Source: Candidatus Aenigmatarchaeota archaeon (lineage in GTDB: Archaea > Aenigmatarchaeota > Aenigmatarchaeia > JACPZZ01). From it: DNA of 52,229 nt. A program made the position numbers and the translations under genes. The notes below the pieces were generated by a model. The model was given only the letters and a program-made list of their open reading frames with translations. It did not search any database and was not told the DNA's origin. Positions within the stretch are counted from its first letter, which is position 1. Every line of letters begins with the position of its first letter. Positions 5,710-30,008 of this stretch are shown here, one piece after another. Location: assembly GCA_016195275.1 (NCBI GenBank), contig JACPZZ010000029.1, positions 1 to 52,229 on the forward strand, given 5' to 3'.

Positions 5710-5951
5710 GCCTGGGTAGTGTAGCGGTCTACCACGCGGGACTGTCAAATAAAATCCCTTTCTTTTTCGAAGAAAGGTCTTTTAAACAAAGGAAACCTTT
5801 GGTTCCCTTGCACAGTTTTGCTGTTGCAAAACCTGTGACCCCAAAGAAAACGAACGATCATACAGGGAAAGATAGACCGGTAAGAAAACCGCAGGTTTTC
5901 TTGCGGTACAGAACTCCCGTAACCCGGGTTCAAATCCCGGCCCAGGCGCCA
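5710..5951 (+). tRNA. tRNA-Asp(GTC) with a 166-nt intron at 37/38 (5748-5913); CCA encoded
   Basis: Acceptor GCCTGGG/CCCAGGC, anticodon stem CGGGA/TCCCG, T-arm CCGGG-TTCAAAT-CCCGG. BHB central helix CTGT/ACAG with 3-nt bulges CAA and AAC. Confidence 0.92.
5786..5837. repeat. Twin-hairpin module M1 (inside tRNA-Asp intron)
   Basis: CAAAGGAAACC-TTT-GGTTCCCTTG followed directly by CACAGTTTTGC-TGTT-GCAAAACCTGTG. Confidence 0.75.
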
Positions 5952-5959
5952 AACCATAT

Positions 5960-6010
5960 ATTAGAAAACCATTCAGGTTTTCTAATTGAGAAAACCGCGG
6001 GTTTTTCCAA
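5960..6010. repeat. Twin-hairpin module M2 (tRNA-Asp/tRNA-Lys spacer)
   Basis: ATTAGAAAACC-ATTCA-GGTTTTCTAAT then TTGAGAAAACC-GCG-GGTTTTTCCAA; the first stem is identical to the one at 29836. Confidence 0.8.
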
Positions 6011-6092
6011 TCACCAGAAAGATTACATGAAACATTCAAAACGAACCGAAAATGCAATATCAAAATTAAATTTGATGTTCGATTCGTTTTAC

Positions 6093-6378
6093 GGGCCCGT
6101 AACTCAGCCTGGTAGAGTATCGGGCTTTTAAGCGAGTTGTCGGATGAAACAGGAAGTAAACTGAAGTATACCAATGGTATGCTTCGGTCTGAACCTGTTT
6201 CGATCAGCAAAAGTTTAAAAGAGCTGAGACCGTTCAAACTTTGAGACAAAGTTTGATCAAAGGGGGCGGTTTATGATCAAAAATCAAAACAGATATGAAA
6301 AATCAGAAATAATTGATATCAGTTTTGATTTTACGTAAAGAAACCCGAGAGTCGTGGGTTCAAATCCCGCCGGGCCCA
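6093..6378 (+). tRNA. tRNA-Lys(TTT) with a 212-nt intron at 37/38 (6131-6342)
   Basis: Acceptor GGGCCCG/CGGGCCC, D-arm ACTC/GAGT, anticodon stem TCGGG/CCCGA, T-loop TTCAAAT. BHB helix CTTT/AAAG, bulges TAA and AAA, closing GCG/CGT. Confidence 0.92.
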
Positions 6379-6396
6379 AAATTCGGAGAGGTTGGA

Positions 6397-6645
6397 ATGA
6401 AAGAAGAGATCAAAATCACGAGCCATTTTGTTGTACCAAAACATGAGATATTGACGCCGGATGAAATAAAAGTTCTTCTGGACAAGTTCAAAATTTCCAT
6501 AAACCAGTTACCCAGGATTGCGGAAGACGATGTTGTAGTAAAAGAAATAGGGGCCAGTGTAGGCGATGTCCTTAAAATTACAAGAGCTTCGCTTACGGCA
6601 GGCGTTTCCCAGTATTACCGGTTGGTTGTGAGGGAACAGCTATGA
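6397..6645 (+). CDS. rpoH: RNA polymerase subunit H (Rpo5)
   Basis: HFVVPKHEIL...LPRI...GDVLKITRASLTAG..YYRLV; start moved to ATG 6397 after a GAGG RBS. Confidence 0.95.
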   Translation: MKEEIKITSHFVVPKHEILTPDEIKVLLDKFKISINQLPRIAEDDVVVKEIGASVGDVLKITRASLTAGVSQYYRLVVREQL

Positions 6646-8114
6646 ATTCTAAGTTATTAATGGGTTCGTTTGCGAAAGAAAGAGGATTTGTAAAATACCA
6701 ACTGGAGTCTTTCAGCGATTTTGTAAGTTTCAGACTCCAAAAAATCATCACGCAGATAAACGAGATAAAACCTGAAGTTCCTGAATTAAACCTGAAAATA
6801 AAACTGGGTAAAATAAAGCTGGGCAAGCCTTCGGTAAAAGAGGCGGACGGCGCTGTAAGAACCGTTTTCCCGATGGAAGCCCGTTTGAGAAATTTAACTT
6901 ATGCGGCGCCGCTTTTTGTCGAGATGACGCAGGTCATCAACGACATAGAAGAAAGGCCTGTGATGGTCCATATCGGAGATTTGCCTGTGATGGTAAAATC
7001 CGGATTGTGCTCCACTACGGGACTTTCGGAACAGGAGTTGGTCGATGTAGGAGAAGACCCTCAGGATCCGGGCGCATACTTTATAGTAAACGGAACCGAA
7101 CGTGCACTGGTTTTGGTGGAGGAAATATCCCCGAACAGGATAATATTGGAAAAGAAAGAGGGGAGCGTGACCGGCGTAGCCAGAATAAATTCAGAAAAAG
7201 ATGGTTTCGTGCAGAGGCATATAGTAGAGATGAAGCAGGACGGCATAATCACGGCTTCTTTTGCAAATGTGCATAAAATACCTATCATAATCTTGCTCAA
7301 GGCATTGGGCTTGGAGACGGACAAAGACATCATATCGTCCGTATCCAGCGACGCCCAGGTGGGAGAGGAATTTTATCCGAACATTTACGAGAGCGATGTG
7401 AAAAAAGTAGAGGACGCTCTGGACGGGATAGGAAAACATTTGAAGGTCGCTCCGGAATACAGAAAGTCCAGGGCCGAACAGGTGATAGATCGTTACTTAT
7501 TGCCTCATATAGGCCAGAAACCCGAGAACAGGCTAGAAAAGGCAAAATATCTTTCAAAAGTTGCCAAGAAGCTAATAGACCTGAAGATGGGAAAGGTTGT
7601 AGAGGACGATTTAGACCATTATTCCAACAAGAGATTGAGGATGTCCGGCGATCTGCTTGAATTGTTGTTCAGGTCAATACTCCTTGGAAGATGGGGGTTG
7701 ATAACAAGAATCTGTTACAATTACCAAAAGCTTGCCAAGAGAGGAAAAGTTCCTTCGGTCCAATCCGTAGTGGAATCGAATGTGTTGACAAACCAATTGG
7801 CATCCTCGCTGGCAACAGGAGCCTGGGTAGGCGGACGAACCGGCGTTTCACAAAGACTCGAAAGGGGAAATTTCATAAGGACGCTTTCACATTTACGCAA
7901 TGTATTATCACCGTTGACGACAACGCAGGAACATTTCGAGGCAAGAGAACTGCATTTGACGCACTGGGGTCGTTTATGCCCGTCAGAAACGCCTGAAGGG
8001 CCGTCTATCGGATTGAGAAAATACCTTTCGATAATGGCCGAAGCGACGCCGGGTATGAATGAAAAAGAAAGCAAAGATCTGTTGGATTCGCTGAATATAG
8101 AAAACCCTGTTTGA
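6642..8114 (+). CDS. rpoB2: RNA polymerase subunit B'' (Rpo2 N-terminal part)
   Basis: PMEARLRNLTYAAP, GAYFIVNGTER, CPSETPEGPSIGL motifs. Confidence 0.95.
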   Translation: MNSKLLMGSFAKERGFVKYQLESFSDFVSFRLQKIITQINEIKPEVPELNLKIKLGKIKLGKPSVKEADGAVRTVFPMEARLRNLTYAAPLFVEMTQVINDIEERPVMVHIGDLPVMVKSGLCSTTGLSEQELVDVGEDPQDPGAYFIVNGTERALVLVEEISPNRIILEKKEGSVTGVARINSEKDGFVQRHIVEMKQDGIITASFANVHKIPIIILLKALGLETDKDIISSVSSDAQVGEEFYPNIYESDVKKVEDALDGIGKHLKVAPEYRKSRAEQVIDRYLLPHIGQKPENRLEKAKYLSKVAKKLIDLKMGKVVEDDLDHYSNKRLRMSGDLLELLFRSILLGRWGLITRICYNYQKLAKRGKVPSVQSVVESNVLTNQLASSLATGAWVGGRTGVSQRLERGNFIRTLSHLRNVLSPLTTTQEHFEARELHLTHWGRLCPSETPEGPSIGLRKYLSIMAEATPGMNEKESKDLLDSLNIENPV

Positions 8115-8119
8115 TATTT

Positions 8120-9928
8120 ATGGCCGACATATACTTCAATGGAAAATTTGTAGGAACCTCCGGTAAAGGGGAGAAATTTGTAGAAGATGTGAGAAAAAAG
8201 AGAAGAGCGGGTTTGCTGCCTCAAAAAATGAACATAGTATACTACAAAGAGTTCGATGAAATTCGCATCAACAGCGATTCCGGAAGATTGCGCAGGCCTT
8301 TGGTGATAGCTGAAAAAGGAAAGCCCAAATTAACGGATGAGCACCTGAAAAAATTGGAAGCCGGGGAAATTTCCTGGAACGATCTTCTAAGCAAGGGCAT
8401 CATAGAATTTTTGGATGCCGAAGAGGAGGAGAATGCGTACATAGCGCTCACCGAGAAAGACCTGAACGAAGAGCATACGCACGTTGAGATAAGCCCAAGC
8501 ATAATACTCGGCATTTCCGCATCATTGATTCCTTTTGCAGAACACAACAGAGGAGACCGTGTAAATTACGGCGCAAAAATGACAGGACAGGCCATAGGAA
8601 TGTACGCGTCAAATTTTTTGATGCGAACAGACACTAAAGCGAACCTGATGATATACCCGCAAGTCCCGCTGGTGAGGACTGAAAGTTCGGACATAGTAGG
8701 CTTGACAACGCACCCTGCCGGGCAAAATCTGGTAATCGCAGTCATGCCGTACGGAGGTTACAACATGGAAGACGCTTTGGTGATAAACAGGGGGGCTGTA
8801 GACCGAGGCATGTTGAGATCAGTTTATTTCAGGATATACGAAACTGACGAAAAGAAGTACTGGGGAGGCCAGGAAGACGAGATCCGCATACCTGATCCTA
8901 CGGTGCGCGGCTACAAATCCGAAGAAGATTACAAGCGTCTCGGAGAAGACGGCGTGATAAACCTTGAAACCCCTGTTACTTCGGGCGATGTGCTTATCGG
9001 AAAAATATCGCCTTTACGTTTCTTAGGCACTGTGGAAGAATTCATGACAGGCATAGAAAACAGGAGGGAATCTTCGGTTACTGTAAGGCACGGTGAAAAG
9101 GGAATCGTGGAAAAAATAATGATTTCAGAGTCTGCGGACGGCAACCGTCTGATAAAAGTTTCTGTAAGGGACGAGAGGATCATAGAAATAGGCGACAAGG
9201 TGTCTTCGCGCCACGGACAGAAAGGCGTTGTAGGACTCCTGGTTAATCCTGAAGACATGCCGTTCACGGAATCCGGAGTCGTTCCCGACGTGCTTTTCAA
9301 CACGCATTCGATACCGTCAAGGATGACAATGGGACAATTGCTGGAAATGATCACAGGAAAAACTTCGGCAGTCACGGGTGAATATTACGACGCTACAGGG
9401 TTCACGGGCGTGGATGAAAATTATATCAGAGAAACGCTGGGTAAATTAGGATTCCGGGAAGATGGGAAGGAAATTTTGTACGACGGAAAGACCGGGAAAC
9501 AGTACGAAGTTATGATATTTACCGGTGTCGCGTATTACCAAAAGCTCGATCATATGGTTGCGAACAAGATACACGCAAGATCAAGGGGGCCTGTTGCGCT
9601 TTTGACAAAACAGCCTACTGAAGGACGCGCAAAGGAAGGCGGTTTGCGTCTTGGTGAAATGGAAAAAGACTGCATAATAGCGCACGGAGCTGCAATGGTG
9701 CTGAAGGAAAGATTTGATTCGGACAAATACATGGTGGCGGTTTGTGAAAATTGCGGGCTGATTGCCATGAACGACCGTACAAAGAATAAACTCGTGTGTT
9801 CACTGTGCAGCGAATCGAAGATAAGCTGGGTGGAAATGTCTTACGCATTCAAGCTCATGCTTGAAGAGCTGAAATCGCTTTTGATTTACCCGCGCGTGGA
9901 AGTCGGGGATCATAAAAGCCCGAGTTAA
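8120..9928 (+). CDS. rpoB1: RNA polymerase subunit B' (Rpo2 C-terminal part)
   Basis: GYNMEDA, GDKVSSRHGQKG, PSRMTMGQ, EGGLRLGEME motifs and a C-terminal Zn ribbon. Confidence 0.95.
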   Translation: MADIYFNGKFVGTSGKGEKFVEDVRKKRRAGLLPQKMNIVYYKEFDEIRINSDSGRLRRPLVIAEKGKPKLTDEHLKKLEAGEISWNDLLSKGIIEFLDAEEEENAYIALTEKDLNEEHTHVEISPSIILGISASLIPFAEHNRGDRVNYGAKMTGQAIGMYASNFLMRTDTKANLMIYPQVPLVRTESSDIVGLTTHPAGQNLVIAVMPYGGYNMEDALVINRGAVDRGMLRSVYFRIYETDEKKYWGGQEDEIRIPDPTVRGYKSEEDYKRLGEDGVINLETPVTSGDVLIGKISPLRFLGTVEEFMTGIENRRESSVTVRHGEKGIVEKIMISESADGNRLIKVSVRDERIIEIGDKVSSRHGQKGVVGLLVNPEDMPFTESGVVPDVLFNTHSIPSRMTMGQLLEMITGKTSAVTGEYYDATGFTGVDENYIRETLGKLGFREDGKEILYDGKTGKQYEVMIFTGVAYYQKLDHMVANKIHARSRGPVALLTKQPTEGRAKEGGLRLGEMEKDCIIAHGAAMVLKERFDSDKYMVAVCENCGLIAMNDRTKNKLVCSLCSESKISWVEMSYAFKLMLEELKSLLIYPRVEVGDHKSPS

Positions 9929-9937
9929 GTGGTTAAT

Positions 9938-12454
9938 ATGGCAGACATGAAAGAAGTTCAGAGCATTGAATTTGGCGTTTTGTCACCTAAAATGATATTG
10001 AAAATGTCTACGGTGAGGATTGCGCGTGCCGAATTGTACGACCCGGACGGGTATCCAATAGACGGCGGCGTGATGGATCCGAGAATGGGTGTTATCGATC
10101 CCGGATTAAGGTGCAGGACGTGCGGTGGTTCTGTCGGCGATTGCGGCGGGCACTTCGGTTATCTGGAGCTGGCAAGGCCTATAGTTCATGTTTTGTACGC
10201 CAAATTCGTTTACAAGCTGCTGAAAGTAATATGCAGAAAATGCGGCAAGCTGCTAACAGGCATCAGGGAAAAAACTTCTCTCAAGGAAGTAATGAAAACC
10301 GCGAATAAAAAATGCCAGGGTTGCGGCGAAGAGCAGGGTGAAATAAAATTCGAAAAGCCGTATTCATTCTGGGAGGATAAGGCTCCTTTAAATCCCATGT
10401 CGATCAGGGAAAGATTCGAGAAAACGCCTGACGAAGACCTTGAATTGATCCGCGTAAGGATAAGGCCGGAATGGCTGATCATAACTATATTGCCTGTGCC
10501 CCCGGTTACGGTTAGGCCAAGCATAACACTGGAAACCGGTGAGCGCTCAGAAGACGATTTGACTCATAAACTGGTTGACATAGTCAGGATAAACCAGAGG
10601 CTGAAGGAGAACATAGACATAGGCGCCCCGGACTTTATCATTGAAGACTTGTGGGAATTGTTGCAATACCACGTTTCGACATTCTTTGACAATGAATTAA
10701 CAGGCGTTCCTCATGCAAGACACAGGTCAGGGCGCGGGTTGAAAACTCTTGTACAGAGATTGAAGACTAAAGAAGGGCGATTCAGAAGCAACCTTGCAGG
10801 CAAGCGTGTGAATTTCTGCGCCAGAACCGTCATCTCCCCGGACAATAACATAGACATAGACGAGGTTGGCGTACCCGAAATTATCGCAAAGGAGTTAACA
10901 ATTCCGTCTCGTGTCACGGATTTCAATATAGCAATGGTCAAAGAAGTCGTGAAAAACGGTCCCAATGTGTGGCCGGGTGCAAATTATGCAATTAGGCCGG
11001 ACGGGAGAAAGAAAAAGATCACCGAAGAAAGCAGGAACGAAATTGCGGAAGAGATAGTCAATGGGTGGATAGTAGAAAGGCATCTGCAAAACGGCGATAT
11101 AGTTTTATTCAATCGCCAACCTTCGTTGCACAGAATGTCCATAATGGCCCACCGCGTGAAGGTGATGCCTTATCGTACTTTCAGATTAAATTTGTGCGTT
11201 TCACCGCCCTACAACGCAGACTTTGACGGGGATGAAATGAACTTGCACGTCCCGCAGACCGAGGAGGCACAGGCGGAAGCGATGCTTTTGATGCAAGTCC
11301 AGAACCAGGTTCGTTCTCCGAGATTCGGAGGGCCGATAATTGCGCCGAAAAACGATCACATATCAGGACTCTTTTTGTTAACGAGAAAAGAAACTATAAT
11401 GACAAAGGAAGAAGCTGCACAGATTTTGGCTTATGCGGGCATAGACGCAGAGTTGCCGGACAAGGAAAAAATCGCCGGCAAGGAAGTGTTTAGTTTGCTG
11501 CTGCCCAAGACGCTAGACATTGAATTCCAATCCACGTGGCATAAAGGAAAAGCCGAGAAGGAGGAAGATTCAAACGTAGTTATCAAAGACGGCAAACTGG
11601 TAAAAGGTGTGATTGACAAAAGCGCTGTAGGATCGGAAGAGGGCGCGATCATAGATAAAATAGATAAGGTCAGCACGCCGCAGGAAGTCAGTGACTTCAT
11701 AAATAAAGTTTCAAGACTCGGTACCGCCATGCTCGATACAAGAGGATTTACAGTCGGTATATCCGACAACGACCTTTCCGACGAGGCGAAGAAGCTTGTG
11801 AGTAAAGCGATCAAAAAGGCCGAAGAGGATGTCGCAGACCTGATAGACCAATATAACAAAGGCAAACTGGAAGGTTTGCCTGACAGGTCCCTGAACGCAT
11901 CGCTGGAAGTTTACATAATGCAAAGGCTTGCAAAGGCCGTAAACGAGTGCGGCGAGATTGTAAGCTCCCACGTACCGGAAAACGACACGATATTCATGGC
12001 CCGCACAGGAGCGAGGGGTTCGCTGGTTAACGTAACACAAACAGCGGCTTGCATAGGACAAGAAACCGTATTGGGACAAAGGATACACCGCGGTTATCTG
12101 AACAGGACACTGCCTCATTTCAAGAAAGGGGATTTGTCGCCAATTTCACACGGCTTTGTCGGAACGAGCTTCAAAGCAGGATTGACGCCTTTTGAGTTTT
12201 TTTGGGACTCATTGAACGGCCGTGAAGGGCTCATGGACAAATCGCTGAGAACAAGACACAGCGGTTACATGGAACGCCGTCTCGTAAACGCCCTGCAAGA
12301 CCTAAAGGTAAAATACGACATGACTGTGCGCGACCTTACAAATTCCATTGTTCAATTTGTCCCGGGAGAGGACGGAATAGATCCGGCAAAATCCAACTGG
12401 GGTAAATTTGATGTCGATAACTTCGTAAACATGGAGGTTTCCAAAGATGATTGA
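9938..12454 (+). CDS. rpoA1: RNA polymerase subunit A' (Rpo1N)
   Basis: Catalytic YNADFDGDEMN, FNRQPSLH, N-terminal CxxC Zn sites. Confidence 0.97.
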   Translation: MADMKEVQSIEFGVLSPKMILKMSTVRIARAELYDPDGYPIDGGVMDPRMGVIDPGLRCRTCGGSVGDCGGHFGYLELARPIVHVLYAKFVYKLLKVICRKCGKLLTGIREKTSLKEVMKTANKKCQGCGEEQGEIKFEKPYSFWEDKAPLNPMSIRERFEKTPDEDLELIRVRIRPEWLIITILPVPPVTVRPSITLETGERSEDDLTHKLVDIVRINQRLKENIDIGAPDFIIEDLWELLQYHVSTFFDNELTGVPHARHRSGRGLKTLVQRLKTKEGRFRSNLAGKRVNFCARTVISPDNNIDIDEVGVPEIIAKELTIPSRVTDFNIAMVKEVVKNGPNVWPGANYAIRPDGRKKKITEESRNEIAEEIVNGWIVERHLQNGDIVLFNRQPSLHRMSIMAHRVKVMPYRTFRLNLCVSPPYNADFDGDEMNLHVPQTEEAQAEAMLLMQVQNQVRSPRFGGPIIAPKNDHISGLFLLTRKETIMTKEEAAQILAYAGIDAELPDKEKIAGKEVFSLLLPKTLDIEFQSTWHKGKAEKEEDSNVVIKDGKLVKGVIDKSAVGSEEGAIIDKIDKVSTPQEVSDFINKVSRLGTAMLDTRGFTVGISDNDLSDEAKKLVSKAIKKAEEDVADLIDQYNKGKLEGLPDRSLNASLEVYIMQRLAKAVNECGEIVSSHVPENDTIFMARTGARGSLVNVTQTAACIGQETVLGQRIHRGYLNRTLPHFKKGDLSPISHGFVGTSFKAGLTPFEFFWDSLNGREGLMDKSLRTRHSGYMERRLVNALQDLKVKYDMTVRDLTNSIVQFVPGEDGIDPAKSNWGKFDVDNFVNMEVSKDD

Positions 12455-15202: not shown

Positions 15203-15221
15203 TTATGAAAAGGATGTTGCC

Positions 15222-20978: not shown

Positions 20979-21315
20979 AAATTTTAATCTGATTTTATTG
21001 CATCAATAAATTTTTCACCGGCGAAACGACTGCTTAACCAATTATCAACGAAACTAGAAGCCAGGTATACGTGCATGTTATGACGTTTCATAATCATTAT
21101 CCTCAGTACATAGTTTTCCATGAAATTTAAACTGCACTCGGCTGTTCAACTATTTCATTTATCGCTGCGGGCCTCATTTTTTTACGAACAAATTGAAATT
21201 TGTCGTTTTCGTGCAAAGGTATTGCTAATCTGTTGTTTTTCCCGTATTTTGCCATGAAATGCGGTTATTCCGGTAACCTATTTAAATACAAGAGTGGTAA
21301 ATAAAGTGATCAAAA

Positions 21316-22578: not shown

Positions 22579-22652
22579 GTTTGTGTTTTGAAGCGATTTA
22601 TAGAGCTTAAATGCTTATCTGTTCTAAATGCATACAAATTAAAGTGATGTAA

Positions 22653-23180
22653 ATGGCACAAAAACTTATAAATTATTTTGCAACGCCGGTACAATTCGAT
22701 CCTGCAAAGCGTGACTATGCGCGATCTTATGCCAGATGGGTGTTGCCTCCTCCGGAGCTGGCGTCGCAGTTAGAAAACTGGCCTCCCCGCAAGGTGTTCA
22801 TAAACTTACCGCCGAGGCGTGACATCAGGGTTGTGAACGTCTTGTCGGTGGAAGAAGATAGCACGGGTTTTTTTGTAGACGAGAAAATGTGGTATCCAAA
22901 TGAACACGGCGTTTATGTTAGCGGTGGCGGATCACAGTTTCATGCATCGAAAACACCGACAGGGGGATATGAAACTGTCGGGTCGGCCAAAGGCTATCTT
23001 TTTGCTGGTCGCGTTCCTGGTCCAGTCAAACAAGCTCTAATTGACTTGTTTTCGGAAGAACTGGAAAAGGTAAGAAAAGAAAAAGGTATGAAATTCCTAT
23101 TTTCGTGGGAGGATCAGGAGCCACGTTACCCTGAAAGTTACATTCCTCTTTTCAATACCATACATCAATTGCCCGAGTAA
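22653..23180 (+). CDS. Hypothetical protein
   Basis: 175-aa ORF with a GTGATG RBS-like site; no family recognised. Confidence 0.6.
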   Translation: MAQKLINYFATPVQFDPAKRDYARSYARWVLPPPELASQLENWPPRKVFINLPPRRDIRVVNVLSVEEDSTGFFVDEKMWYPNEHGVYVSGGGSQFHASKTPTGGYETVGSAKGYLFAGRVPGPVKQALIDLFSEELEKVRKEKGMKFLFSWEDQEPRYPESYIPLFNTIHQLPE

Positions 23181-23254
23181 AATTGGATAAGCCTAATTTT
23201 TGTATTTTTCTCCGCTTTTGTAACATTTAAATGTCTTCCTGTTGTTTTATAAAA

Positions 23255-23584
23255 ATGCCGGAAAGGACCGAAGAACAGTTGAGAGAATTGTACCCTGTTG
23301 CCGCTATTTACACACCGCTTGACGGGTTTGACATACACCGAACCAAAAGGCGGATAACCGCACTTGTTGCCGTGGAGGATCAAAAAGGCGGTAGGGATCT
23401 AAGATTGTACACTTGGCAATGGAGAAAATCTAAGCTCAACGAAGCCGGGCAGGCTAACGAGCCGGAGTATCGGTGGAAAGTCGATCTGGCAAGACAGTCG
23501 GTCACGGGTTGGGATTTTAGAGAACTCGCCACGCAAGCAAGAAAATTGGCTGCAAAGTACGATATAAAGATGGATTCAATGTAA
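23255..23584 (+). CDS. Hypothetical protein
   Basis: ~109-aa ORF downstream of a TTTAAA box; Trp-rich beta segments. Confidence 0.6.
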   Translation: MPERTEEQLRELYPVAAIYTPLDGFDIHRTKRRITALVAVEDQKGGRDLRLYTWQWRKSKLNEAGQANEPEYRWKVDLARQSVTGWDFRELATQARKLAAKYDIKMDSM

Positions 23585-23775
23585 TCAATGTAATTTCAGC
23601 CGCGCCTTTAAATTCAAACCAGTTTAATTCTTTGTATTTGCTGCGATAGCCAAGTCAGGTTCAGGCGACTGAAGCAGACATGGTCTGCTTCTAGCGGCCA
23701 AAGGCGCTGGTCTGGAATGTATAGGAACAAGTTGTTCGCAGGGGAGTAGTTTTCCAAAAGGAAACTATTGCAATT

Positions 23776-23832
23776 TACAAGGTAAACCCGATGGGTTTAC
23801 CTGTACAGTTTTTGCAAAAGCAAAAACTTGTA
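23776..23832. repeat. Twin-hairpin module M3 (tRNA-Ser intron)
   Basis: TACAAGGTAAACCC-GAT-GGGTTTACCTGTA overlapping TACAGTTTTTGC-AAAA-GCAAAAACTTGTA. Confidence 0.8.
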
Positions 23833-23860
23833 CCTTCAGGTGGATTGCAAACGTGTGTTT

Positions 23861-23911
23861 GCTAGTTTACCAGTGGTAAACTGCAGCAGTTTTGCTCAAA
23901 GCAAAACTAGC
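23861..23911. repeat. Twin-hairpin module M4 (tRNA-Ser intron)
   Basis: GCTAGTTTACC-AGT-GGTAAACTGC, A, GCAGTTTTGC-TCAAA-GCAAAACTAGC. Confidence 0.8.
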
Positions 23912-23976
23912 TTTCCTGCGACCAGAGAGCCAGTGTGCGCAAGCACGCGGGGGTTCAAATCCCTCTCGCAGCGTTT

Positions 23977-24060
23977 ATGAAACTCGAAAAGAAATGCCTG
24001 ATCTGCGGCAAAAAAGGCCACTGGCTGGTTGGATGCAAGTTTGAAAAGAAGTTTGATTAG
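23977..24060 (+). CDS. 27-aa CCHC zinc-knuckle microprotein
   Basis: MKLEKKCLICGKKGHWLVGCKFEKKFD matches C-x2-C-x4-H-x4-C exactly; below the ORF-track length cutoff. Confidence 0.6.
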   Translation: MKLEKKCLICGKKGHWLVGCKFEKKFD

Positions 24061-24111
24061 CCCGCCGCAATTAATATATTAACTGTAAATCAACTAAATT
24101 ACTGAATCAGG

Positions 24112-24702
24112 ATGAAAAAAGAAACCGCAATTTTCGCTGTCTTGACCGCCTTAATTGCTTTTTTCATATCAACAGGCACGATGGCGAGCAAGGAAAACGG
24201 AATAAAAATGGATGGGATTGTAATTTTGGAAACTTCCAACGGGAATATAGAAATACAGTTAGACAGCGCGCATGCGCCGATAACGGTTGCAAATTTCCTG
24301 AAATATGTCAACGAAGGGTTTTACAACGGCACGATATTCCATCGGGCTATTCCAAATTTCATGGCACAGGCCGGTGGTTTTACGAGTGACGGCACGGAAA
24401 AACAAACGCACGAACCGATAAAACTCGAGTCTAACAACGGTTTGAGCAACAAACGCGGGATGATTGCGATGGCCCGGACAAACGATCCGGACAGTGCAAC
24501 AAGCCAGTTCTTTATCAATGTGGCTGACAATTATTTCCTTGATTATGGCCGCGGCAATGATGGTTATGCCGTTTTTGGAAACGTGACAAAGGGCATGGAT
24601 GTTGCGGATGCGATTGTTTCTGTTAAAACAGGCGACAGGGGCTTTTTTTCAGACTGGCCGGTAGAGGATATCATTATCAAAGGCGCCTATGTTAAAAAGT
24701 AA
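24112..24702 (+). CDS. Cyclophilin-type peptidyl-prolyl cis-trans isomerase with N-terminal signal/anchor
   Basis: APITVANF, FHRAIPNFMAQAGG, AMART..PDSATSQFFIN, YAVFG. Confidence 0.92.
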   Translation: MKKETAIFAVLTALIAFFISTGTMASKENGIKMDGIVILETSNGNIEIQLDSAHAPITVANFLKYVNEGFYNGTIFHRAIPNFMAQAGGFTSDGTEKQTHEPIKLESNNGLSNKRGMIAMARTNDPDSATSQFFINVADNYFLDYGRGNDGYAVFGNVTKGMDVADAIVSVKTGDRGFFSDWPVEDIIIKGAYVKK

Positions 24703-24745
24703 CTATAAATAAGCAACAAGCGCTTAATACCTAGGAGAAAAACAA

Positions 24746-25939
24746 ATGAATTTTGAGGATTTGCAGCTAAAACCGGAACTGCTTAAAGCTGTTACAGAGC
24801 TTGGTTTTACGGAATTGACAGAGATACAGCAGAAATGCATACCTGAAATACGCGGCGGCAGGGATGTTGTCGGCCAGTCAAGCACCGGATCGGGCAAAAC
24901 AGCCGCGTTCGGGCTTCCGATACTCGAAAAAATCGAACATGGAAAGGGCATACAGTCTTTGATTGTGACGCCGACACGCGAGTTGTGCGTACAGGTAACA
25001 GATGCTTTGCGTAGCTTCGGTAGGTTCATGCACACCAATGTTGCGAGCGTGTTCGGCGGCGTCAGTATCGAACCGCAGATAACCGCGGTGCGCACAGCTG
25101 ATATTGTTGTCGGGACGCCCGGACGTATTCTGGACCACATGGAACGAAGGACGATCAATTTCCAAAACGTGCGCTTTTTAGTCATCGACGAAGCGGACAA
25201 AATGTTTGAAATGGGGTTCATAGAAGACGTTGAGCGCATAATAAAACAAACGCCACAAAACAGGCAGACTTTATTATTCAGCGCTACTATACCGGCAGAG
25301 GTGAGGCACATAGTCGAGCGCCATCTTAATTCACCAGTAACGATTAAGGGCGTGATTTATGTTGATACGAGCCTGCTCAGGCACGTTTATTATGATATAA
25401 AGCCCCACGACAAATTTTCTTTGTTAGTTCACCTGTTGAAGCAAAACAAGGAAGGCATTGCGCTTGTTTTCTGCGCCACAAGGCACGAAGTCGACGCTGT
25501 TGCGGAAAACCTCAAGTCGCAGGGGATAAACGCAGAAGCCATACACGGCGGCATGGAGCAGAACAGGCGTTTGCGATCTGTCGAAGCTTTGAAAAACGAA
25601 ACGATAAACGTGTTAGTCGCAACTGATGTCGCTGCGCGCGGACTTGACATAAGAAATGTATCGCATGTGTACAATTACGACGTTCCCAAATCCTCCTCGG
25701 ATTACATACATCGCGTTGGCCGCACCGCGCGCGCAGGCGGTGAAGGCGATGCTGTCACATTGTTGTCTGAACGCGATCATGATAACTTCTCGCGGATTTT
25801 GCGCGACAGAAGTTTGAAAATTGCAAGAACTGAAAAGCCGGAAATTGAACGCGTCCAGTTTAAACGCGCGGAAAGGCGCGGCCGTTTTGGCAGCCGGGGT
25901 TTCCGAAAACCTGGTTTCCACAGAAGGCCGAGATATTAA
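24746..25939 (+). CDS. DEAD-box RNA helicase
   Basis: Q motif, TGSGKT, PTREL, DEAD, SAT, ARGLD, HRVGRTAR; Arg/Gly-rich tail. Confidence 0.95.
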   Translation: MNFEDLQLKPELLKAVTELGFTELTEIQQKCIPEIRGGRDVVGQSSTGSGKTAAFGLPILEKIEHGKGIQSLIVTPTRELCVQVTDALRSFGRFMHTNVASVFGGVSIEPQITAVRTADIVVGTPGRILDHMERRTINFQNVRFLVIDEADKMFEMGFIEDVERIIKQTPQNRQTLLFSATIPAEVRHIVERHLNSPVTIKGVIYVDTSLLRHVYYDIKPHDKFSLLVHLLKQNKEGIALVFCATRHEVDAVAENLKSQGINAEAIHGGMEQNRRLRSVEALKNETINVLVATDVAARGLDIRNVSHVYNYDVPKSSSDYIHRVGRTARAGGEGDAVTLLSERDHDNFSRILRDRSLKIARTEKPEIERVQFKRAERRGRFGSRGFRKPGFHRRPRY

Positions 25940-26032
25940 ACAAAAAGTTCCATTGTTAAAGTGACCTGCATGGATTCTTGGTTTATTGTCGACCTAACAA
26001 ATATTTAAATCAGATTGTGAGCAGTTTTAATT

Positions 26033-26254
26033 ATGGCAGAAGTCACAAGTTTGGGCAATGTGCTTGTCTTAACAGGCGGGTTATTGGTTCTGTTAGGCTT
26101 GGTTGTGCTGATCGGCGGCAAAATACCGTTCTTCGGAAATTTGCCCGGAGACATATCCATAGAAAGAGGCAATTTCAAATTTTACGCGCCGATAGCAACG
26201 TTTCTGGTAATAAGCATAGTACTGACGGTTTTGCTGAACCTGTTATCAAAATGA
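26033..26254 (+). CDS. Small membrane protein (DUF2905-like)
   Basis: Two transmembrane helices flanking GNLPGDISIERGNFKFYAPI. Confidence 0.75.
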   Translation: MAEVTSLGNVLVLTGGLLVLLGLVVLIGGKIPFFGNLPGDISIERGNFKFYAPIATFLVISIVLTVLLNLLSK

Positions 26255-26716
26255 TCATACCGTCAGATAATCCGCGAACTTGATGTCAGGTATTCCGTCA
26301 GATCTTTCTTCGACTTTTATGTACTTAAGCTCTCTTCCCACAACAATCTCTGCAGGCAGCTCGTTTTCCAATTGTTCTTTGACCCAATTAAACTGTCTGG
26401 GTGAGTTTGTTGCAAGCGCTATTTCCACTTCGCAGGAATACCTTTCAGGGTCATCCGCCTTTTCGACATCCATGAAACCTGCCAGGTAGAATTCGACCCT
26501 GCCGTAATCTGTTGGTACAGACCCTTTGACAGTAAACATTCTTTTGTCAGGCGATATCTGCATCTTTCCGCCAATTCTTACCAGTTCCGATGCCATATGT
26601 TTTAAGCGGTAGCCTGTTTCCATCCCGAACGAATATCCGGTATGCGGATCAGAATACCTGTCCATACCCAACAGTTGCGGTGTAAGCCTGGCCCTGTACA
26701 CTTCAAAATCTGCCAT
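26255..26716 (-). CDS. Hypothetical protein
   Basis: 153-aa ORF with an upstream TTTAAATA box on the minus strand. Confidence 0.6.
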   Translation of the reverse strand: MADFEVYRARLTPQLLGMDRYSDPHTGYSFGMETGYRLKHMASELVRIGGKMQISPDKRMFTVKGSVPTDYGRVEFYLAGFMDVEKADDPERYSCEVEIALATNSPRQFNWVKEQLENELPAEIVVGRELKYIKVEERSDGIPDIKFADYLTV

Positions 26717-26753
26717 GTTTGAGAATACAGACTGAAGATATTTAAAGCACTTT

Positions 26754-27296
26754 TTACAGGGATGTCACATTCAGAACGAACGATCCTGCTATTTCTGACG
26801 AACGGCCTGCTTCCTCGGCCTTTGCCCAGTAGTTGATCGCTCCTGATGTTGTTACGGGAATTACATAAGTACACGTTATCTCGGCGCCATCAGGCTTTGC
26901 GCTGCCCTGCCCTATGCAGTAACGGCCTGTACATTGCTCATTCTTGCAGACGCTGACTGTGACAAACTCGCTTTCCGCATCAGCAACTGTGACCGCAAAC
27001 GTTACTTCTTTGCCTGTCCTTACCGGGTTCGGTCGTTGAACAGACGAAAGGACGCGCGGCGGCTGGTTGCCTGCAATTGTCGATGTGGTTGTAGAGGTTG
27101 TTGTGGTGGTTGTTGACGGTAACATCGTGGTTGCCGATACTGTTGTTGTCGCTGTTATGGTCGTTGTGGTGGTTGTAGTCTGTTGGGGCTGTTCAGTTTT
27201 CCCTGAAAACAGGACAAAAAGAAGAAGCAGAATGCCGACACCGATAATGTAAAGGCTGGGATGGCGTTTATTTCTGCCTGTGAAATCGTAATTCAT
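26754..27296 (-). CDS. Membrane-anchored protein with Thr-rich linker and Ig-like domain
   Basis: N-terminal transmembrane helix, poly-Thr stalk, beta-rich domain starting NQPP. Confidence 0.7.
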   Translation of the reverse strand: MNYDFTGRNKRHPSLYIIGVGILLLLFVLFSGKTEQPQQTTTTTTTITATTTVSATTMLPSTTTTTTSTTTSTIAGNQPPRVLSSVQRPNPVRTGKEVTFAVTVADAESEFVTVSVCKNEQCTGRYCIGQGSAKPDGAEITCTYVIPVTTSGAINYWAKAEEAGRSSEIAGSFVLNVTSL

Positions 27297-27385
27297 ATAA
27301 ATAATATTACAACCTCTTATTTAAGGTGTTTTTATAGGAACTTCGCATTGTAAACAGTTCTTAATACCAATGAATATCTAAGATC

Positions 27386-28453
27386 ATGGAACATATAATC
27401 ATACACGCTGACCTGGACGCGTTTTTTGCCTCGTGTGAAGAGCGCGAGAACCCTTTGCTGAAAGGCAAGCCTGTCATCATAGGGGCGGATCCGAAAAACG
27501 GCCGCGGACGCGGGGTTGTAAGCACTGCGAACTATGAGGCGCGCAGGTTTGGCGTAAGGTCGGCAATGCCGGTATCGCGCGCGTACAGGCTGTGCCCGAA
27601 CGGAGTTTATCTCAGGCCGAATTTCACGCTTTACGAAAAGGTTTCTGGTGGTGTGATAGCGATATTGAAAAAGTACGCTGACAAATTCCAGCAGGCAGGA
27701 ATAGACGAGGCGTTTTTGGACGTGTCGTCCGCAGGAAATTTTGAAAAGGCTGCCAAAATTGCGGACCGGATAAAAGAGGAAATAAAAAGAAAGGAAAAAA
27801 TAACAGCTTCTGTGGGCATTGCTCCGAACAAAATGATCGCAAAGATAGCCTCTGATGAAAATAAACCGGACGGCATTACGGTTGTTAAACCGGCGGATGT
27901 CAGAAATTTCATTTATCCGAAAAGCGTACGGAAACTTTGGGGAATAGGACCCAAAACTGAAATTCTGCTGAACCAGTTAGGGATAAAAACGATCAAGGAT
28001 CTGGCAGAAGCAGATACCAGACAATTAAAAGAAAAATTGGGTAATATGGCGGAATATTTTCAAATTTTAGCCAATGGAATAGATGAAAGCCCTGTGGAGG
28101 AATCGTATGAGATTAAATCGTTTAACCGCGAACATACGTTTGAAGAGGACACCTCACGAAAAGATGGCATATTGCCCACGATAAAAACCCTTGCTCACGA
28201 CTTGTACGAACAGGCAAAATTGAATAAAGCCTGTTTCAGGACGATAACGCTGAAAGTGCGCTTCTCCAACTTCGAGACATACACACGCGCAAAAAGCCTT
28301 TCTTCCCACACGGACGACGAAAAAACGATAACCGAGACTGCGAATATGCTCGCCGAAGAGTTTTTAAAAACCGGCCGCAAAATACGGCTCGTCGGCGTGC
28401 GCATTTCGAACCTTAAGTTAGGCGAAATGCAGAAAAAACTTTCTGCTATTTAA
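27386..28453 (+). CDS. dinB: DNA polymerase IV (Y family)
   Basis: HADLDAFFASCE, STANYEARRFGVRSAMP, GIDEAFLD, K-P-D-G, little-finger RLVGV. Confidence 0.95.
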   Translation: MEHIIIHADLDAFFASCEERENPLLKGKPVIIGADPKNGRGRGVVSTANYEARRFGVRSAMPVSRAYRLCPNGVYLRPNFTLYEKVSGGVIAILKKYADKFQQAGIDEAFLDVSSAGNFEKAAKIADRIKEEIKRKEKITASVGIAPNKMIAKIASDENKPDGITVVKPADVRNFIYPKSVRKLWGIGPKTEILLNQLGIKTIKDLAEADTRQLKEKLGNMAEYFQILANGIDESPVEESYEIKSFNREHTFEEDTSRKDGILPTIKTLAHDLYEQAKLNKACFRTITLKVRFSNFETYTRAKSLSSHTDDEKTITETANMLAEEFLKTGRKIRLVGVRISNLKLGEMQKKLSAI

Positions 28454-28475
28454 GTGCTGAAGCAAATATCTGGTT

Positions 28476-29171
28476 ATGAAACGCGGTCCCGGCCTTATAA
28501 TTTTCGATTTAGACGGGACTCTTATAGATGCGAGGCACAACTTAAAGGAAAACATAAATTATGCGCTGAAGATGAACGGCTACGCACCGGTAACTGGAAA
28601 CAGAATTTTCACCCTTATAGGGCACCCGCTGATAGACATTTACAAAATAATTCTGCCAAAAAAAGATGCGTACATAGCTGCAAAACTTGTGAAGGATTAC
28701 AGGAAACGGTATAAAAAAACGTGCCATATAGGCGTTAAAATACTTTCAGGCGTTGAAAAAACTCTGGAAGCATTCAAAAGAAACGGTTTCGGTATTGCGA
28801 TGGCAACTGCCAAAGGCGAAGCGCAGACAAAGCTGCTGCTGAAAAGGCTTGGACTGCGGAAATATTTTGACCTTGTGGTGGGATACAGATATGGAAAATC
28901 CCAATTGCGGCCCAAGCCGCATCCTGACATGATCTTGCACATAATGAAGCACCTGAAATTCAACAGAAACCGGACAATAATGGTTGGCGACACGCAACTG
29001 GACATACGCGCGGGCAGGAACGCGCGCGTCCGGACAATCGCCGTAAAGACCGGGGTGAAACTGGGAATTTCAAGGCTGGAAGAATTAAAAAAAGCGCGTC
29101 CCGACGCCATAATAGGCTCTGTAAGCACGCTGGCTGGGAGACTTAAAAAATACGGGTTCGACATTTATTAA
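28476..29171 (+). CDS. HAD-family phosphatase (phosphoglycolate phosphatase-like)
   Basis: FDLDGTL, KPHP, MVGDTQLD. Confidence 0.88.
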   Translation: MKRGPGLIIFDLDGTLIDARHNLKENINYALKMNGYAPVTGNRIFTLIGHPLIDIYKIILPKKDAYIAAKLVKDYRKRYKKTCHIGVKILSGVEKTLEAFKRNGFGIAMATAKGEAQTKLLLKRLGLRKYFDLVVGYRYGKSQLRPKPHPDMILHIMKHLKFNRNRTIMVGDTQLDIRAGRNARVRTIAVKTGVKLGISRLEELKKARPDAIIGSVSTLAGRLKKYGFDIY

Positions 29172-29192
29172 CCCGCCGGTACAATCCAACTT

Positions 29193-29492
29193 ATGGTTTC
29201 GGAAGAGCAGGCAAAATCCATATTAAAGAATTGCTACGACCCGGAGATACCGATAAACATAGTTGACCTTGGACTGGTTTACGGGATAAAAATCGACGAT
29301 GGAAACAAAAAAATCAAAATTACCATGACATTAACGTCTCCAGGTTGCCCGCTCTATGGCCAGATTTCAGAAGACGTTAAACGCAGGCTCGAAGAAGGCA
29401 CTTCTTACGAGGCTATTGTTGAGATGGTCTGGGAGCCGCGCTGGACGCAGGAAATGATGAGCGAAGATGCGAAAGCGATGATAGGGCTTTGA
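29193..29492 (+). CDS. DUF59/SufT-like Fe-S cluster assembly protein
   Basis: DPEIPINIVDLGLVY...TLTSPGCP...WEPRW. Confidence 0.92.
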   Translation: MVSEEQAKSILKNCYDPEIPINIVDLGLVYGIKIDDGNKKIKITMTLTSPGCPLYGQISEDVKRRLEEGTSYEAIVEMVWEPRWTQEMMSEDAKAMIGL

Positions 29493-29835
29493 GCGCCTTG
29501 AATTTCTTGCTGTTGTATGAATTCTATGCCCGGTTATATAACCAAATATTTGAACGGGACTAAAGTGCGGACAGGCCAAAAAAGGAGACCTTTAGAGACT
29601 ACTAATAAACAAATGGAAAAATACAAATTAAGGGTAACAAGAAAACAGGGCGTTTATTCGGTGGTGCGAAACGGCAAAAGAACGCTTATAAAGGCTATCC
29701 TATATTATAATTTGGTACAATTACATTCGATGTTTGATCGAATTTATTAAAAGGGCGATAAAACCCTGCGGTTTTGGTTCCCGCGCGGTTCGAATGCCCT
29801 CAAACCAAAAACCACAAGTGCTGGCGTGGTTCTGG

Positions 29836-29886
29836 ATTAGAAAACCTTGGGTTTTCTAATTTAGTAAACCTTTATGGTTTACTAAA
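29836..29886. repeat. Twin-hairpin module M5 (rpl3 leader)
   Basis: ATTAGAAAACC-TTG-GGTTTTCTAAT then TTAGTAAACC-TTTAT-GGTTTACTAA. Confidence 0.8.
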
Positions 29887-29958
29887 CTTAGAAGTTTAAA
29901 CGCTTCTTAGGTGCAGTTTTTGACTAGATGTAGGAAACTTTGTTTCCTATGCACGGCT

Positions 29959-30008
29959 GCAAGTTTGCCCTAAGGCAAACTGCAACAGTTTTGCCATGCA
30001 AAACTTGT
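29959..30008. repeat. Twin-hairpin module M6 (rpl3 leader)
   Basis: GCAAGTTTGCC-CTAA-GGCAAACTGC, A, ACAGTTTTGC-CAT-GCAAAACTTGT. Confidence 0.8.

What the first reader, a model, noticed from the sequence alone, without database searches (positions are those of the whole stretch)
5786..30008. Candidate new system: a family of ~50-nt twin-hairpin modules colonising tRNA introns and non-coding transcripts
Seen: six back-to-back hairpin pairs at 5786-5837, 5960-6010, 23776-23832, 23861-23911, 29836-29886 and 29959-30008, plus single hairpins at 5880-5904, 6234-6256, 23746-23769 and 29929-29953. All stems carry AAAC/GTTT while the 3-5 nt loops differ and the stems covary. In M1, M3, M4 and M6 the second hairpin is always (A/G)CAGTTTT(T)GC-loop-GC(A)AAAAC, and the two hairpins have mirror-image single-nt bulges, so they look like inverted copies of one imperfect palindrome (e.g. 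GCTAGTTT..AAACTGC vs GCAGTTTT..AAAACTAGC). M2 and M5, 24 kb apart, share the identical stem ATTAGAAAACC/GGTTTTCTAAT. I found copies only in introns, a tRNA spacer and a leader, not in CDSs. Known: bacterial REP/REPIN elements are inverted pairs of imperfect palindromes spread by HUH (RAYT/TnpA) enzymes. Inference: either an archaeal REPIN-like element that survives where splicing or processing makes it neutral, or a modular protein-binding RNA domain deployed on excised intron circles and on the r-protein leader.
Basis: partly seen in the sequence, partly recalled or inferred. Interest (0 to 1): 0.88.

Follow-up and report, generated by a model that had tools for sequence, protein, structure and literature searches.

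The report
Mobile double-hairpin mini-elements in a DPANN archaeon
The ~50-base twin hairpins are real, multi-copy, insertion-type selfish DNA elements of a small group of Aenigmatarchaeota that pile up in tRNA and rRNA introns, spacers and leaders, and their mobilising enzyme is unknown.

Summary
All ten hairpin features fold as described. They belong to a genome-wide family: 67 perfect hairpins with AAAC/GTTT stems against about 6 in shuffles. A covariance model of 19 twin modules finds 43 distinct places in this 1.07-Mb genome.

Comparison of the same loci in six same-genus genomes shows clean filled and empty sites. These lie in the L3 leader and in the tRNA-Asp, tRNA-Lys and tRNA-Ser introns. 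The inserts are 48-55 nt, show no target duplication and are sometimes nested. In one relative a module interrupts the IS200/IS605 transposase gene.

The model matches all 8 genomes of the family. Among 33 other same-class genomes only one has a match, and it has a single match. An exact twin pattern occurs in 9 stretches of 185,579 species genomes, 8 of them titled Aenigmatarchaeota.

These are therefore non-autonomous mobile double hairpins, functionally like bacterial REP dimers/REPINs and mitochondrial double-hairpin elements. The proposed HUH/RAYT link is not supported: TnpA was found in 2 of 8 family genomes, is IS200-type and carries different end hairpins. The mobilising mechanism remains open.

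The parts
5710..5951 (+). tRNA-Asp(GTC) gene with a 166-nt canonical intron (about 5749-5914) that hosts M1 and the single hairpin 5880-5904
   Evidence: aragorn with introns allowed. Orthologous introns in same-genus genomes are much shorter (about 60-95 nt by my reading) and carry different or no modules.
5786..5837 (+). M1, a twin hairpin: an A-type hairpin followed by a CACAGTTTTGC-type hairpin
   Evidence: Fold -18.5 kcal/mol, z -3.17. The surrounding element recurs at C34:27737-27791 (94.5% over 55 nt) with a further twin hairpin nested in it. Similar copies occur in G001 and G003, and a copy of the host element in G004 lacks the module.
5880..5904 (+). Single A-type hairpin (GAAAACC stem) in the tRNA-Asp intron
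   Evidence: Fold -11.7 kcal/mol, z -4.75. Exact pattern match. Absent from the orthologous introns.
5960..6010 (+). M2, twin hairpin of the ATTAG+TTGAG subfamily, in the tRNA-Asp/tRNA-Lys spacer
   Evidence: R1 score 57.3 bits, E 1.7e-10. Fold z -4.49. Orthologous spacers in G001, G002, G004, G005 and G006 lack it. Copies at 81-92% identity with unrelated flanks occur in this and sister genomes.
6093..6378 (+). tRNA-Lys(TTT by my reading; aragorn calls the anticodon tta) with a 210-nt intron
   Evidence: Orthologous introns are shorter in G002, G005 and G006, and G004 carries several other modules there.
6234..6256 (+). Single hairpin of a related CAAAC...GTTTGATC type, inserted in the loop of a conserved intron hairpin
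   Evidence: Fold z -3.42. Absent from G002, G005 and G006 at this site. Similar hairpins occur in the L3 leaders of G001 and G006.
23640..23973 (+). tRNA-Ser(GGA) gene with two introns: a roughly 38-nt D-arm insert holding a GAAGC-type hairpin, and a long canonical intron
   Evidence: Reading against orthologues. G002, G004 and G005 lack the D-arm insert. aragorn does not call this gene.
23746..23769 (+). Single B-type hairpin, an ancestral part of the tRNA-Ser intron
   Evidence: Present in all six orthologues, with changes that keep pairing. Fold z -2.87.
23776..23832 (+). M3, a twin hairpin and a G000-specific insertion
   Evidence: Absent from all five orthologous introns retrieved (G001, G002, G004, G005, G006). 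It sits at the 5' edge of the loop of a conserved hairpin. A paralogue at C22:4709-4768 has 82% identity and a compensatory stem change. Fold z -6.04.
23861..23911 (+). M4, a twin hairpin
   Evidence: Present at the same site in G000, G002 and G005 and absent in G001, G004 and G006. Dispersed similar copies occur in G003-G006. Fold z -3.94.
29836..29886 (+). M5, a twin hairpin and a 51-nt clean insertion in the L3 leader
   Evidence: G003 and G005 have the uninterrupted site. R1 score 57.6 bits, E 1.4e-10. Fold z -6.55.
29929..30026 (+). Composite of about 98 nt: hairpin 29929-29953, plus a second hairpin whose 5' arm carries the nested twin M6 (29959-30008)
   Evidence: The whole block is absent from the six orthologous leaders. 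A 79%-identical composite follows the LSU rRNA at C2:26275-26371. Similar composites occur in G004, G005 and G006. Fold z -4.76 and -3.89.
30042..31034 (+). Ribosomal protein L3 gene, used as the anchor for the orthologous leaders
   Evidence: 330-aa ORF. It matches at 77-82% identity in six same-genus genomes.

Best explanation
The twin hairpins are copies of a family of very small (48-55 nt), non-autonomous, selfish mobile DNA elements. The family is confined to one family of Candidatus Aenigmatarchaeota (DPANN archaea).

Each element is a nested palindrome of four ~10-nt arms in alternating orientation. It folds into two adjacent hairpins. The stems keep an invariant G-R-A-A-A-Y-C core while the outer base pairs and the loops vary.

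Shown: new copies appear at exact positions between closely related genomes, with no visible target-site duplication. They often land in A/T-rich spots inside or beside other hairpins, so elements become nested and form arrays.

Inferred: copies persist only where they do no harm. Such places are tRNA and rRNA introns (removed by splicing), spacers, 5' leaders, ends of IS elements and dispensable genes. This accumulation is why the tRNA introns here are unusually long.

Inferred, not shown: movement occurs at the DNA level on a folded single strand. It is catalysed in trans by a structure-specific enzyme that recognises the conserved core of the two hairpins, one site per subunit. On present evidence that enzyme is not the resident IS200/IS605 TnpA, and it remains unidentified.
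For: Family size.
- There are 67 perfect AAAC/GTTT hairpins against about 5.6 in shuffles.
- Of 858 stable hairpins, 110 are family-type. 83 of those lie in the 18% of the genome without long ORFs and 27 in the rest.
- Covariance model R1 gives 43 distinct places at E <= 1e-6 in G000. Only 150 of 1028 candidates were scored.

Structure. 92.5% of cells are paired against 75% in shuffles. 14 of 21 pairs show changes on both sides, and 0 of 500 shuffles reach the covariation score.

Filled and empty sites.
- M5 and the 29929-30026 block are absent from orthologous L3 leaders.
- G006 has a 48-nt twin nested in a hairpin loop relative to G001.
- G002 and G005 have a 48-nt twin next to the TATA box.
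- Each species has a different set of modules in the tRNA-Asp and tRNA-Lys introns.
- M3 is G000-only, and M4 is shared by 3 of 6 genomes.
- Within the genome there are filled/empty pairs at a GAAGC-type hairpin, at TnpB left and right ends and at C34 against the window.
- A module interrupts the TnpA gene of G006.

Distribution.
- R1 matches at E <= 1e-4, both strands counted: G000 60, G001 9, G002 20, G003 23, G004 48, G005 23, G006 24, G007 4. 32 of 33 other same-class genomes have 0.
- All 9 matches in genome contigs are in Aenigmatarchaeota or uncultured-archaeon MAGs.
- A module in the LSU rRNA gene lies inside an 838-nt insert, not in mature rRNA.
Against: - No mobilising gene was identified, so 'mobile' rests on comparative presence/absence, not on observed movement.
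- Public contigs of four runs showed no joint that skips a module. Contigs drop rare variants, so this says little.
- The preference for hairpin loops is not general. Only 4 of 33 non-redundant copies have complementary flanks (duplex <= -8 kcal/mol), against 5% in two controls.
- Many copies travel passively inside larger repeats, so the number of independent insertions is lower than the copy number.
- The covariation alignment was fitted to the model and includes both strands of some palindromic copies.
- A cellular use of some copies cannot be excluded. The hairpin at 23746-23769 is conserved in all six orthologues.
Confidence: 0.72

Rival explanations
1. An archaeal REPIN/PATE system in the strict sense. 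The twin hairpins would be mobilised as single-stranded DNA by a Y1 HUH transposase (IS200/IS605 TnpA or a domesticated RAYT) supplied in trans.
For: - HUH Y1 enzymes act on ssDNA hairpins and leave no target duplication (recalled knowledge; summarised in passages of PMC3733652 read).
- G000 has one intact TnpA and about 17 TnpB copies, and it has the most modules.
- About 170-nt MITE-like elements at C8, C14 and C15 combine a TnpB-type right end with a twin module.
Against: - PF01797 was found in only G000 and G006 among 8 family genomes. G004 has 48 model matches and none was found, at 85% completeness.
- The G006 gene is itself broken by a module.
- Seven other same-class genomes with a full-length TnpA match have no R1 match.
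- The protein passes the IS200 model (113.5 bits, cut-off 55) and fails the RAYT model (42.6 bits, cut-off 80).
- Its own ends use different G+C-rich hairpins with TTCA or TTTAG loops.
- Module borders lie at the hairpin feet with no room for guide sequences, and the left flanks show no fixed tetranucleotide.
Confidence: 0.13
2. A modular structured RNA domain with a cellular role. Examples would be a binding site for an RNA-binding or processing protein on introns, rRNA spacers and r-protein leaders, recruited repeatedly because it is useful.
For: - An invariant core sits within covarying stems.
- Copies are enriched in transcribed non-coding RNA.
- One B-type hairpin is conserved in all orthologous tRNA-Ser introns.
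Against: - Positions are not conserved between species of one genus.
- Copies sit in a transposase coding sequence and next to a TATA box.
- Both orientations occur.
- Copy number varies from 4 to 60 model matches among sister genomes.
Confidence: 0.08
3. No transposition at all. Hairpins would arise and duplicate locally by template switching or slippage during replication, and similarity between copies would reflect a shared mutational bias.
For: - Arrays and nesting of similar hairpins.
- Two insertions at equivalent points in hairpin arms, just 5' of the T-run.
Against: 48-50-nt modules at unlinked loci, with unrelated flanks, share 81-92% identity within and between genomes. Local processes do not explain this.
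Confidence: 0.05
4. RNA-mediated spread. Modules would be ligated into RNA loops (reverse action of the splicing endonuclease/ligase), then reverse-transcribed and recombined into the genome. This was once proposed for mitochondrial double-hairpin elements.
For: - No target duplication.
- Most sites are transcribed.
- EndA is present.
- The idea for Allomyces elements is cited in PMC2800124 (passages read).
Against: - No reverse transcriptase (PF00078) was found in G000, at 83% completeness.
- By my inspection the module borders do not form a bulge-helix-bulge motif.
Confidence: 0.02

Closest known systems
Bacterial REP dimers / BIMEs / REPINs with RAYT
   Same: - Short imperfect palindromes paired in inverted order, able to fold as two hairpins or one long one.
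- Extragenic, tens of copies, differing between close relatives.
- Some bacterial REP dimers lie 1-5 bp apart and sit inside other palindromes (PMC3733652, passages read).
   Different: - An archaeal (DPANN) host.
- 48-55 nt in total.
- No general GTAG or CGTC tag.
- No flanking single-copy RAYT; the only Y1 gene is IS200-type and usually not found.
- The main niche is tRNA and rRNA introns.
Mitochondrial double-hairpin elements (Allomyces) and repetitive hairpin-forming elements (sponges, fungi)
   Same: - Two adjacent hairpins.
- No target duplication.
- Found in intergenic regions, introns and variable rRNA regions.
- Differ between close species, with the mobilising mechanism unknown.

Source: PMC2800124, passages read. 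The Allomyces paper itself was seen only as a citation there.
   Different: Organelle genomes of eukaryotes, unrelated sequences, and no known link to archaea.
PATEs (palindrome-associated transposable elements; IS200/IS605-derived MITEs)
   Same: - Non-autonomous, hairpin-ended elements in archaea that carry IS200/IS605.
- This genome also holds about 170-nt elements with a TnpB-type right end.
   Different: The twin modules lack the IS left and right end hairpins and cleavage-site flanks. They are found inserted into those ends instead. The PATE papers were seen only as a search listing.
Mobile archaeal bulge-helix-bulge tRNA introns
   Same: Presence/absence of intervening sequence in tRNA genes between close relatives, and the same cellular niche.
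   Different: The modules are passengers inside introns and also occur outside RNA genes. Their borders do not form a bulge-helix-bulge motif by my inspection.

Membership tests
REP/REPIN-RAYT system | Short (20-40 nt) imperfect palindromes in many extragenic copies | tested here: met
   Hairpins of 21-30 nt. 67 perfect copies against about 6 in shuffles. Family-type hairpins are about 14-fold denser outside long ORFs.
REP/REPIN-RAYT system | Two palindromes in inverted order forming one unit that moves as a whole | tested here: met
   Whole twins of 48-55 nt are the unit of insertion at orthologous sites. The arms of M4 and M6 pair either within or across hairpins.
REP/REPIN-RAYT system | Conserved GTAG (or CGTC) tetranucleotide tag at one end of each palindrome | tested here: not met
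   Alignment columns before the core vary (ATTAG, TTGAG, ACG, CACAG, CATAG). GTAG occurs only in the TGTAGG/CGTAGG subfamily.
REP/REPIN-RAYT system | A single-copy RAYT gene, flanked by the repeats, co-inherited with them | tested here: not met
   The Y1 gene is below the RAYT cut-off (42.6 against 80 bits) and above the IS200 cut-off. It is flanked by IS-type ends, not modules. It was found in 2 of 8 module-bearing genomes of 65-91% completeness.
IS200/IS605-derived MITE (PATE) | Ends equal to the left and right subterminal hairpins of a resident IS200/IS605 element, inserted 3' of a fixed short target | tested here: not met
   The IS ends here are G+C-rich hairpins with TTCA or TTTAG loops, next to TTAAC and ending in GTCAC. 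The modules have other stems and variable left flanks.
Archaeal BHB intron | Borders lie in the two 3-nt bulges of a bulge-helix-bulge motif cut by EndA | tested here: inconclusive
   By eye the borders of M3, M4, M5 and the G006 TnpA insert do not form the motif. No dedicated BHB scorer was run and no RNA data exist.
Any Rfam family | Match at the family's gathering score | tested here: not met
   Only the 5S rRNA passes in the window.
Mitochondrial double-hairpin elements | Homology of sequence to the described elements | not tested
   Their sequences were not at hand. The likeness is one of architecture and behaviour only.

The most novel reading that the evidence does not exclude
The modules, and the other small hairpin families nested with them, would be spread by a so far undescribed mobilisation route that is independent of HUH transposases. 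This route would insert folded DNA into or beside existing hairpins. By repeated nested insertion it would build and lengthen archaeal tRNA and rRNA introns. If so, this lineage would show intron growth, and perhaps intron birth, in progress.
Probability: 0.3. Interest if true: 0.82.

Novelty: new variant of a known kind. Interest (0 to 1): 0.62.

Why it matters
How archaeal tRNA introns arrive and grow is an open question. A 2026 preprint on Asgard tRNA introns concludes in its abstract that the route of arrival remains open (10.64898/2026.10.13.758758, abstract read).

Here closely related genomes show one concrete process. Mobile 50-nt double hairpins are added, species by species, to otherwise short introns of tRNA-Asp, tRNA-Lys and tRNA-Ser, and to rRNA inserts and a ribosomal-protein leader.

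This also extends REP/REPIN-like selfish DNA to ~1-Mb genomes of DPANN archaea, apparently without the enzyme that drives the bacterial systems. It therefore points to an unidentified mobilisation mechanism.

On the practical side, these repeats break assemblies and make standard tRNA finders miss genes. Default ARAGORN found 0 tRNAs in the window.

My library searches found no description of such elements in Aenigmatarchaeota or other DPANN archaea.

Tried and rejected
- Default ARAGORN found no tRNA. With introns allowed it found two of the three window tRNAs.
- A permissive hairpin scan (stem >= 7 with one defect) was too noisy: 243 hits, 154 of them in long ORFs. A second one gave 6129 hairpins against about 5700 in shuffles. 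I replaced both with energy-filtered sets, which still missed some known twins because overlapping hairpins were merged.
- MAFFT could not align B-type modules (M1, M3, M4, M6) with A-type ones. Model R1 therefore represents only the A/A class, and I built no second model.
- TnpA as mobiliser: see the rival explanations.
- Reverse transcriptase was not found in G000.
- A three-copy 231-aa gene of unknown family sits next to hairpin arrays (C25:45135-45830 and two paralogues). I tested it as a candidate mobiliser. It had no Pfam or PHROG match and was not found in any of the six same-genus genomes, so I rejected it.
- Hairpin-loop targeting as a general rule is not supported (4 of 33 against 5%).
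- Viral contigs gave 0 matches with two patterns.
- Sequencing runs: no RNA holder was listed. The four DNA runs of one study are kept as contigs. No joint skips a module, and contigs break at the tRNA-Ser locus. Nothing can be said on expression or on polymorphism.
- I did not make a species tree of G000-G006, so gains and losses are not polarised formally.

Full report
**What the window is.** The window is contig C1 of a 1.07-Mb, 34-contig archaeal genome bin of 83% estimated completeness. An exact twin-hairpin pattern occurs in 9 stretches of the 185,579-species genome collection. Eight of these are titled Candidatus Aenigmatarchaeota and one 'uncultured archaeon', so the organism is a DPANN archaeon of that group. 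The runs that hold the sequence are labelled groundwater metagenome. The genome is rich in interruptions. The SSU rRNA match spans 3334 nt for a 1478-position model, and the LSU spans about 8 kb. Many tRNA genes carry introns.

**The observation.** The ten features are at the stated coordinates and fold as described, with z-scores from -2.9 to -6.6 against dinucleotide shuffles. Their hosts are as follows.
- A tRNA-Asp gene with a 166-nt intron and a tRNA-Lys gene with a 210-nt intron.
- A tRNA-Ser(GGA) gene with two introns, which aragorn misses and which I read against its orthologues.
- The leader of the L3 gene.

Rfam reports only the 5S rRNA in the window.

**More than chance.** Perfect hairpins with stems of 8 bp or more and AAAC or GTTT in the arm number 67 in the genome (53 with AAAC in the 5' arm, 14 with GTTT). 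The means over five dinucleotide shuffles are 3.0 and 2.6. Stop-to-stop ORFs of 450 nt or more cover 82% of the genome but hold only 15 of these 67, and some of those ORFs are spurious ones across tRNA introns. Of 858 energetically stable hairpins, 110 are of the family type. 83 of the 110 lie in the 18% of the genome without such ORFs.

**A model and its reach.** Nineteen A-type twin modules align well and gave covariance model R1.
- In the own genome R1 finds 97 matches at E <= 0.1, counting both strands. I count 43 distinct places at E <= 1e-6.
- Only 150 of 1028 first-look candidates were scored. Two places at contig ends may be one locus, because contig ends overlap by 141 nt.
- M2 and M5 match (57.3 and 57.6 bits). 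M1, M3, M4 and M6 contain GTTTTGC-type hairpins and do not match. They form a second class whose copies I traced by BLAST.
- Across 40 relatives, matches at E <= 1e-4 are 9, 20, 23, 48, 23 and 24 in the six same-genus genomes and 4 in the one other genus of the family. 32 of the 33 other same-class genomes have 0, and one has a single match.
- The simple hairpin pattern gives the same picture, except that one genome of another family (G031) has eight single hairpins but no twins.
- Two twin patterns found nothing in viral contigs. One pattern was run on metagenome contigs and found seven.

**Structure.** I used an alignment of 42 matches (31 distinct rows) fitted to R1.
- 92.5% of cells pair, against 75% after shuffling.
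- 14 of 21 pairs change on both sides.
- No shuffle of 500 reaches the observed covariation score.
- Sliding the partners by 1-3 columns drops pairing to 29-59%.
- A G:C pair, three A:U pairs and a C:G pair never vary in the first hairpin. Three A:U pairs never vary in the second hairpin, and its G:C pair changes only to G:U.
- The alignment leans towards the model and contains both strands of some palindromic copies.

Independent of that alignment, paralogous and orthologous copies found by BLAST show compensatory changes, for example M3 against C22:4709-4768.

**Mobility.** This is the decisive result. In the L3 leader:
- M5 is a clean 51-nt insertion. The leaders of G003 and G005 are uninterrupted at that point.
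- The 98-nt block 29929-30026 is absent from all six orthologous leaders.
- G001 and G006 share a different insert near the M5 site. G006 has a further 48-nt twin in the loop of that insert.
- G002 and G005 share a 48-nt twin just downstream of the TATA box.

In the tRNA genes:
- The tRNA-Asp intron is about 60 nt in G001 and G006. It carries one twin in G002 and G005, a different twin at a different place in G004, and several modules in G000. The tRNA-Lys intron behaves likewise. M2 is absent from the five orthologous spacers retrieved.
- In tRNA-Ser, M3 is unique to G000. M4 is shared by G000, G002 and G005 and absent from G001, G004 and G006.

Within G000:
- The element that fills much of the tRNA-Asp intron recurs at C34 with another twin nested inside.
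- A GAAGC-type hairpin is empty at C8 and filled at C15.
- TnpB left and right end hairpins occur with and without a twin in their loops.

In G006 a 48-nt twin interrupts the coding sequence of the Y1 transposase and brings stop codons. None of the borders I could define shows a target duplication.

**Where they sit.** The sites are tRNA introns, an 838-nt insert of the LSU rRNA gene, spacers after rRNA and between tRNAs, leaders, and IS ends. Several copies lie in the loop or an arm of another hairpin. As a general rule this is not supported: 4 of 33 non-redundant copies have strongly complementary flanks, against about 5% in mismatched-flank and random-site controls. Many copies are adjacent to other family hairpins, forming arrays of three or four that are themselves repeated.

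**Mechanism.**
- The behaviour is that of non-autonomous selfish DNA.
- The resident IS200/IS605 system is abundant, with one intact TnpA and about 17 TnpB matches. It is a poor candidate for the mobiliser, for the reasons given under the first rival explanation.
- No reverse transcriptase was found, and the splicing endonuclease is present.
- A multi-copy gene next to hairpin arrays was tested as a candidate and rejected.
- I therefore commit to DNA-level movement of the folded single strand by an unidentified trans-acting, structure-specific enzyme that reads the invariant core. Only the insertion pattern is shown. The strandedness and the enzyme are inferred.

**Comparison with what is known.**
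- The closest functional relatives are bacterial REP dimers/REPINs. Dimers 1-5 bp apart and dimers inserted within other palindromes are described for these, and one REP superfamily also lacks a dedicated transposase (PMC3733652, passages read).
- Mitochondrial double-hairpin and repetitive hairpin-forming elements are also close. They lack target duplications, and their mechanism is likewise unknown (PMC2800124, passages read).
- Membership in the REPIN-RAYT family fails on the tag and on the RAYT gene. Membership in the PATEs fails on the ends.
- My searches of the held library found no description of such elements in Aenigmatarchaeota or DPANN. Supplements were closed and subscription journals are not covered.

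**Verdict.** This is a real feature, correctly seen, and correctly guessed to be REPIN-like in behaviour. It is not an HUH/RAYT system on present evidence. It is a new variant of a known kind, made more interesting by the niche (introns that grow by nested insertion) and by the missing enzyme.

Noticed in passing
window 23661-23700; C2:495-525; C8:18326-18366; C20:6217-6328; C16:17690-17763; C29:6400-6526: A second family of small hairpins has GAA(A/G)C...G(C/T)TTC stems flanked by CT(A/G)G and (A/G)GTC-like bases. It occurs up to three layers deep, each copy in the loop of the previous one. It forms the D-arm insert of tRNA-Ser in G000, G001 and G006 but not in G002, G004 or G005.
   Followed up: partly
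window 5496-5615 compared with L045, L046, L049, L050: The 5S rRNA genes of G002, G005 and G006 carry a roughly 42-nt insert, and G001 a longer nested one. The insert lies in the terminal loop of the 3' hairpin and holds a GAAAC/GAAGC-type hairpin. G000 and G004 lack it. Whether it is spliced out or is an expansion is not known.
   Followed up: partly
C6:5089-5190, C24:87652-87764, C33:6479-6589, C34:27650-27791; window 5752-5850: A repeated element of about 70-110 nt (GGTTTTTGGGG...AAAGACC...hairpin...GGGATTTGGT) ends directly at the ATG of at least four unrelated genes. Its reverse complement makes up the core of the tRNA-Asp intron. It has slots that are filled or empty for twin modules.
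   Followed up: partly
G006 locus L040 1466-1513: The Y1 transposase gene of a sister genome is split by a 48-nt twin module. The module sits in the loop of a 5-bp palindrome within the N-terminal coding part.
   Followed up: yes
C2:760-4093 and C2:18197-26236: The SSU rRNA gene spans 3334 nt and the LSU about 8 kb because of several large inserts, for example 838 nt and 751 nt in the 3' third of the LSU. I did not examine what the inserts encode.
   Followed up: no
C8:10398-10566, C14:15152-15327, C15:38385-38542: Three copies of a MITE-like element of about 170 nt. It is made of a TnpB-type right end, an omega-RNA-like stretch and a twin module, and is bounded by inverted GTGAC/GTCAC.
   Followed up: partly
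C25:45135-45830, C24:4171-4779, C24:101256-101891: A three-copy gene for a protein of about 230 aa with no Pfam or PHROG match, each copy followed by hairpin arrays. It was found in G007 but in none of the six same-genus genomes.
   Followed up: yes
C15:65959-66231 and C15:66289-66338: The tRNA-splicing endonuclease gene is followed within 60 nt by a GAAGC-type hairpin that carries a twin module in its loop.
   Followed up: no
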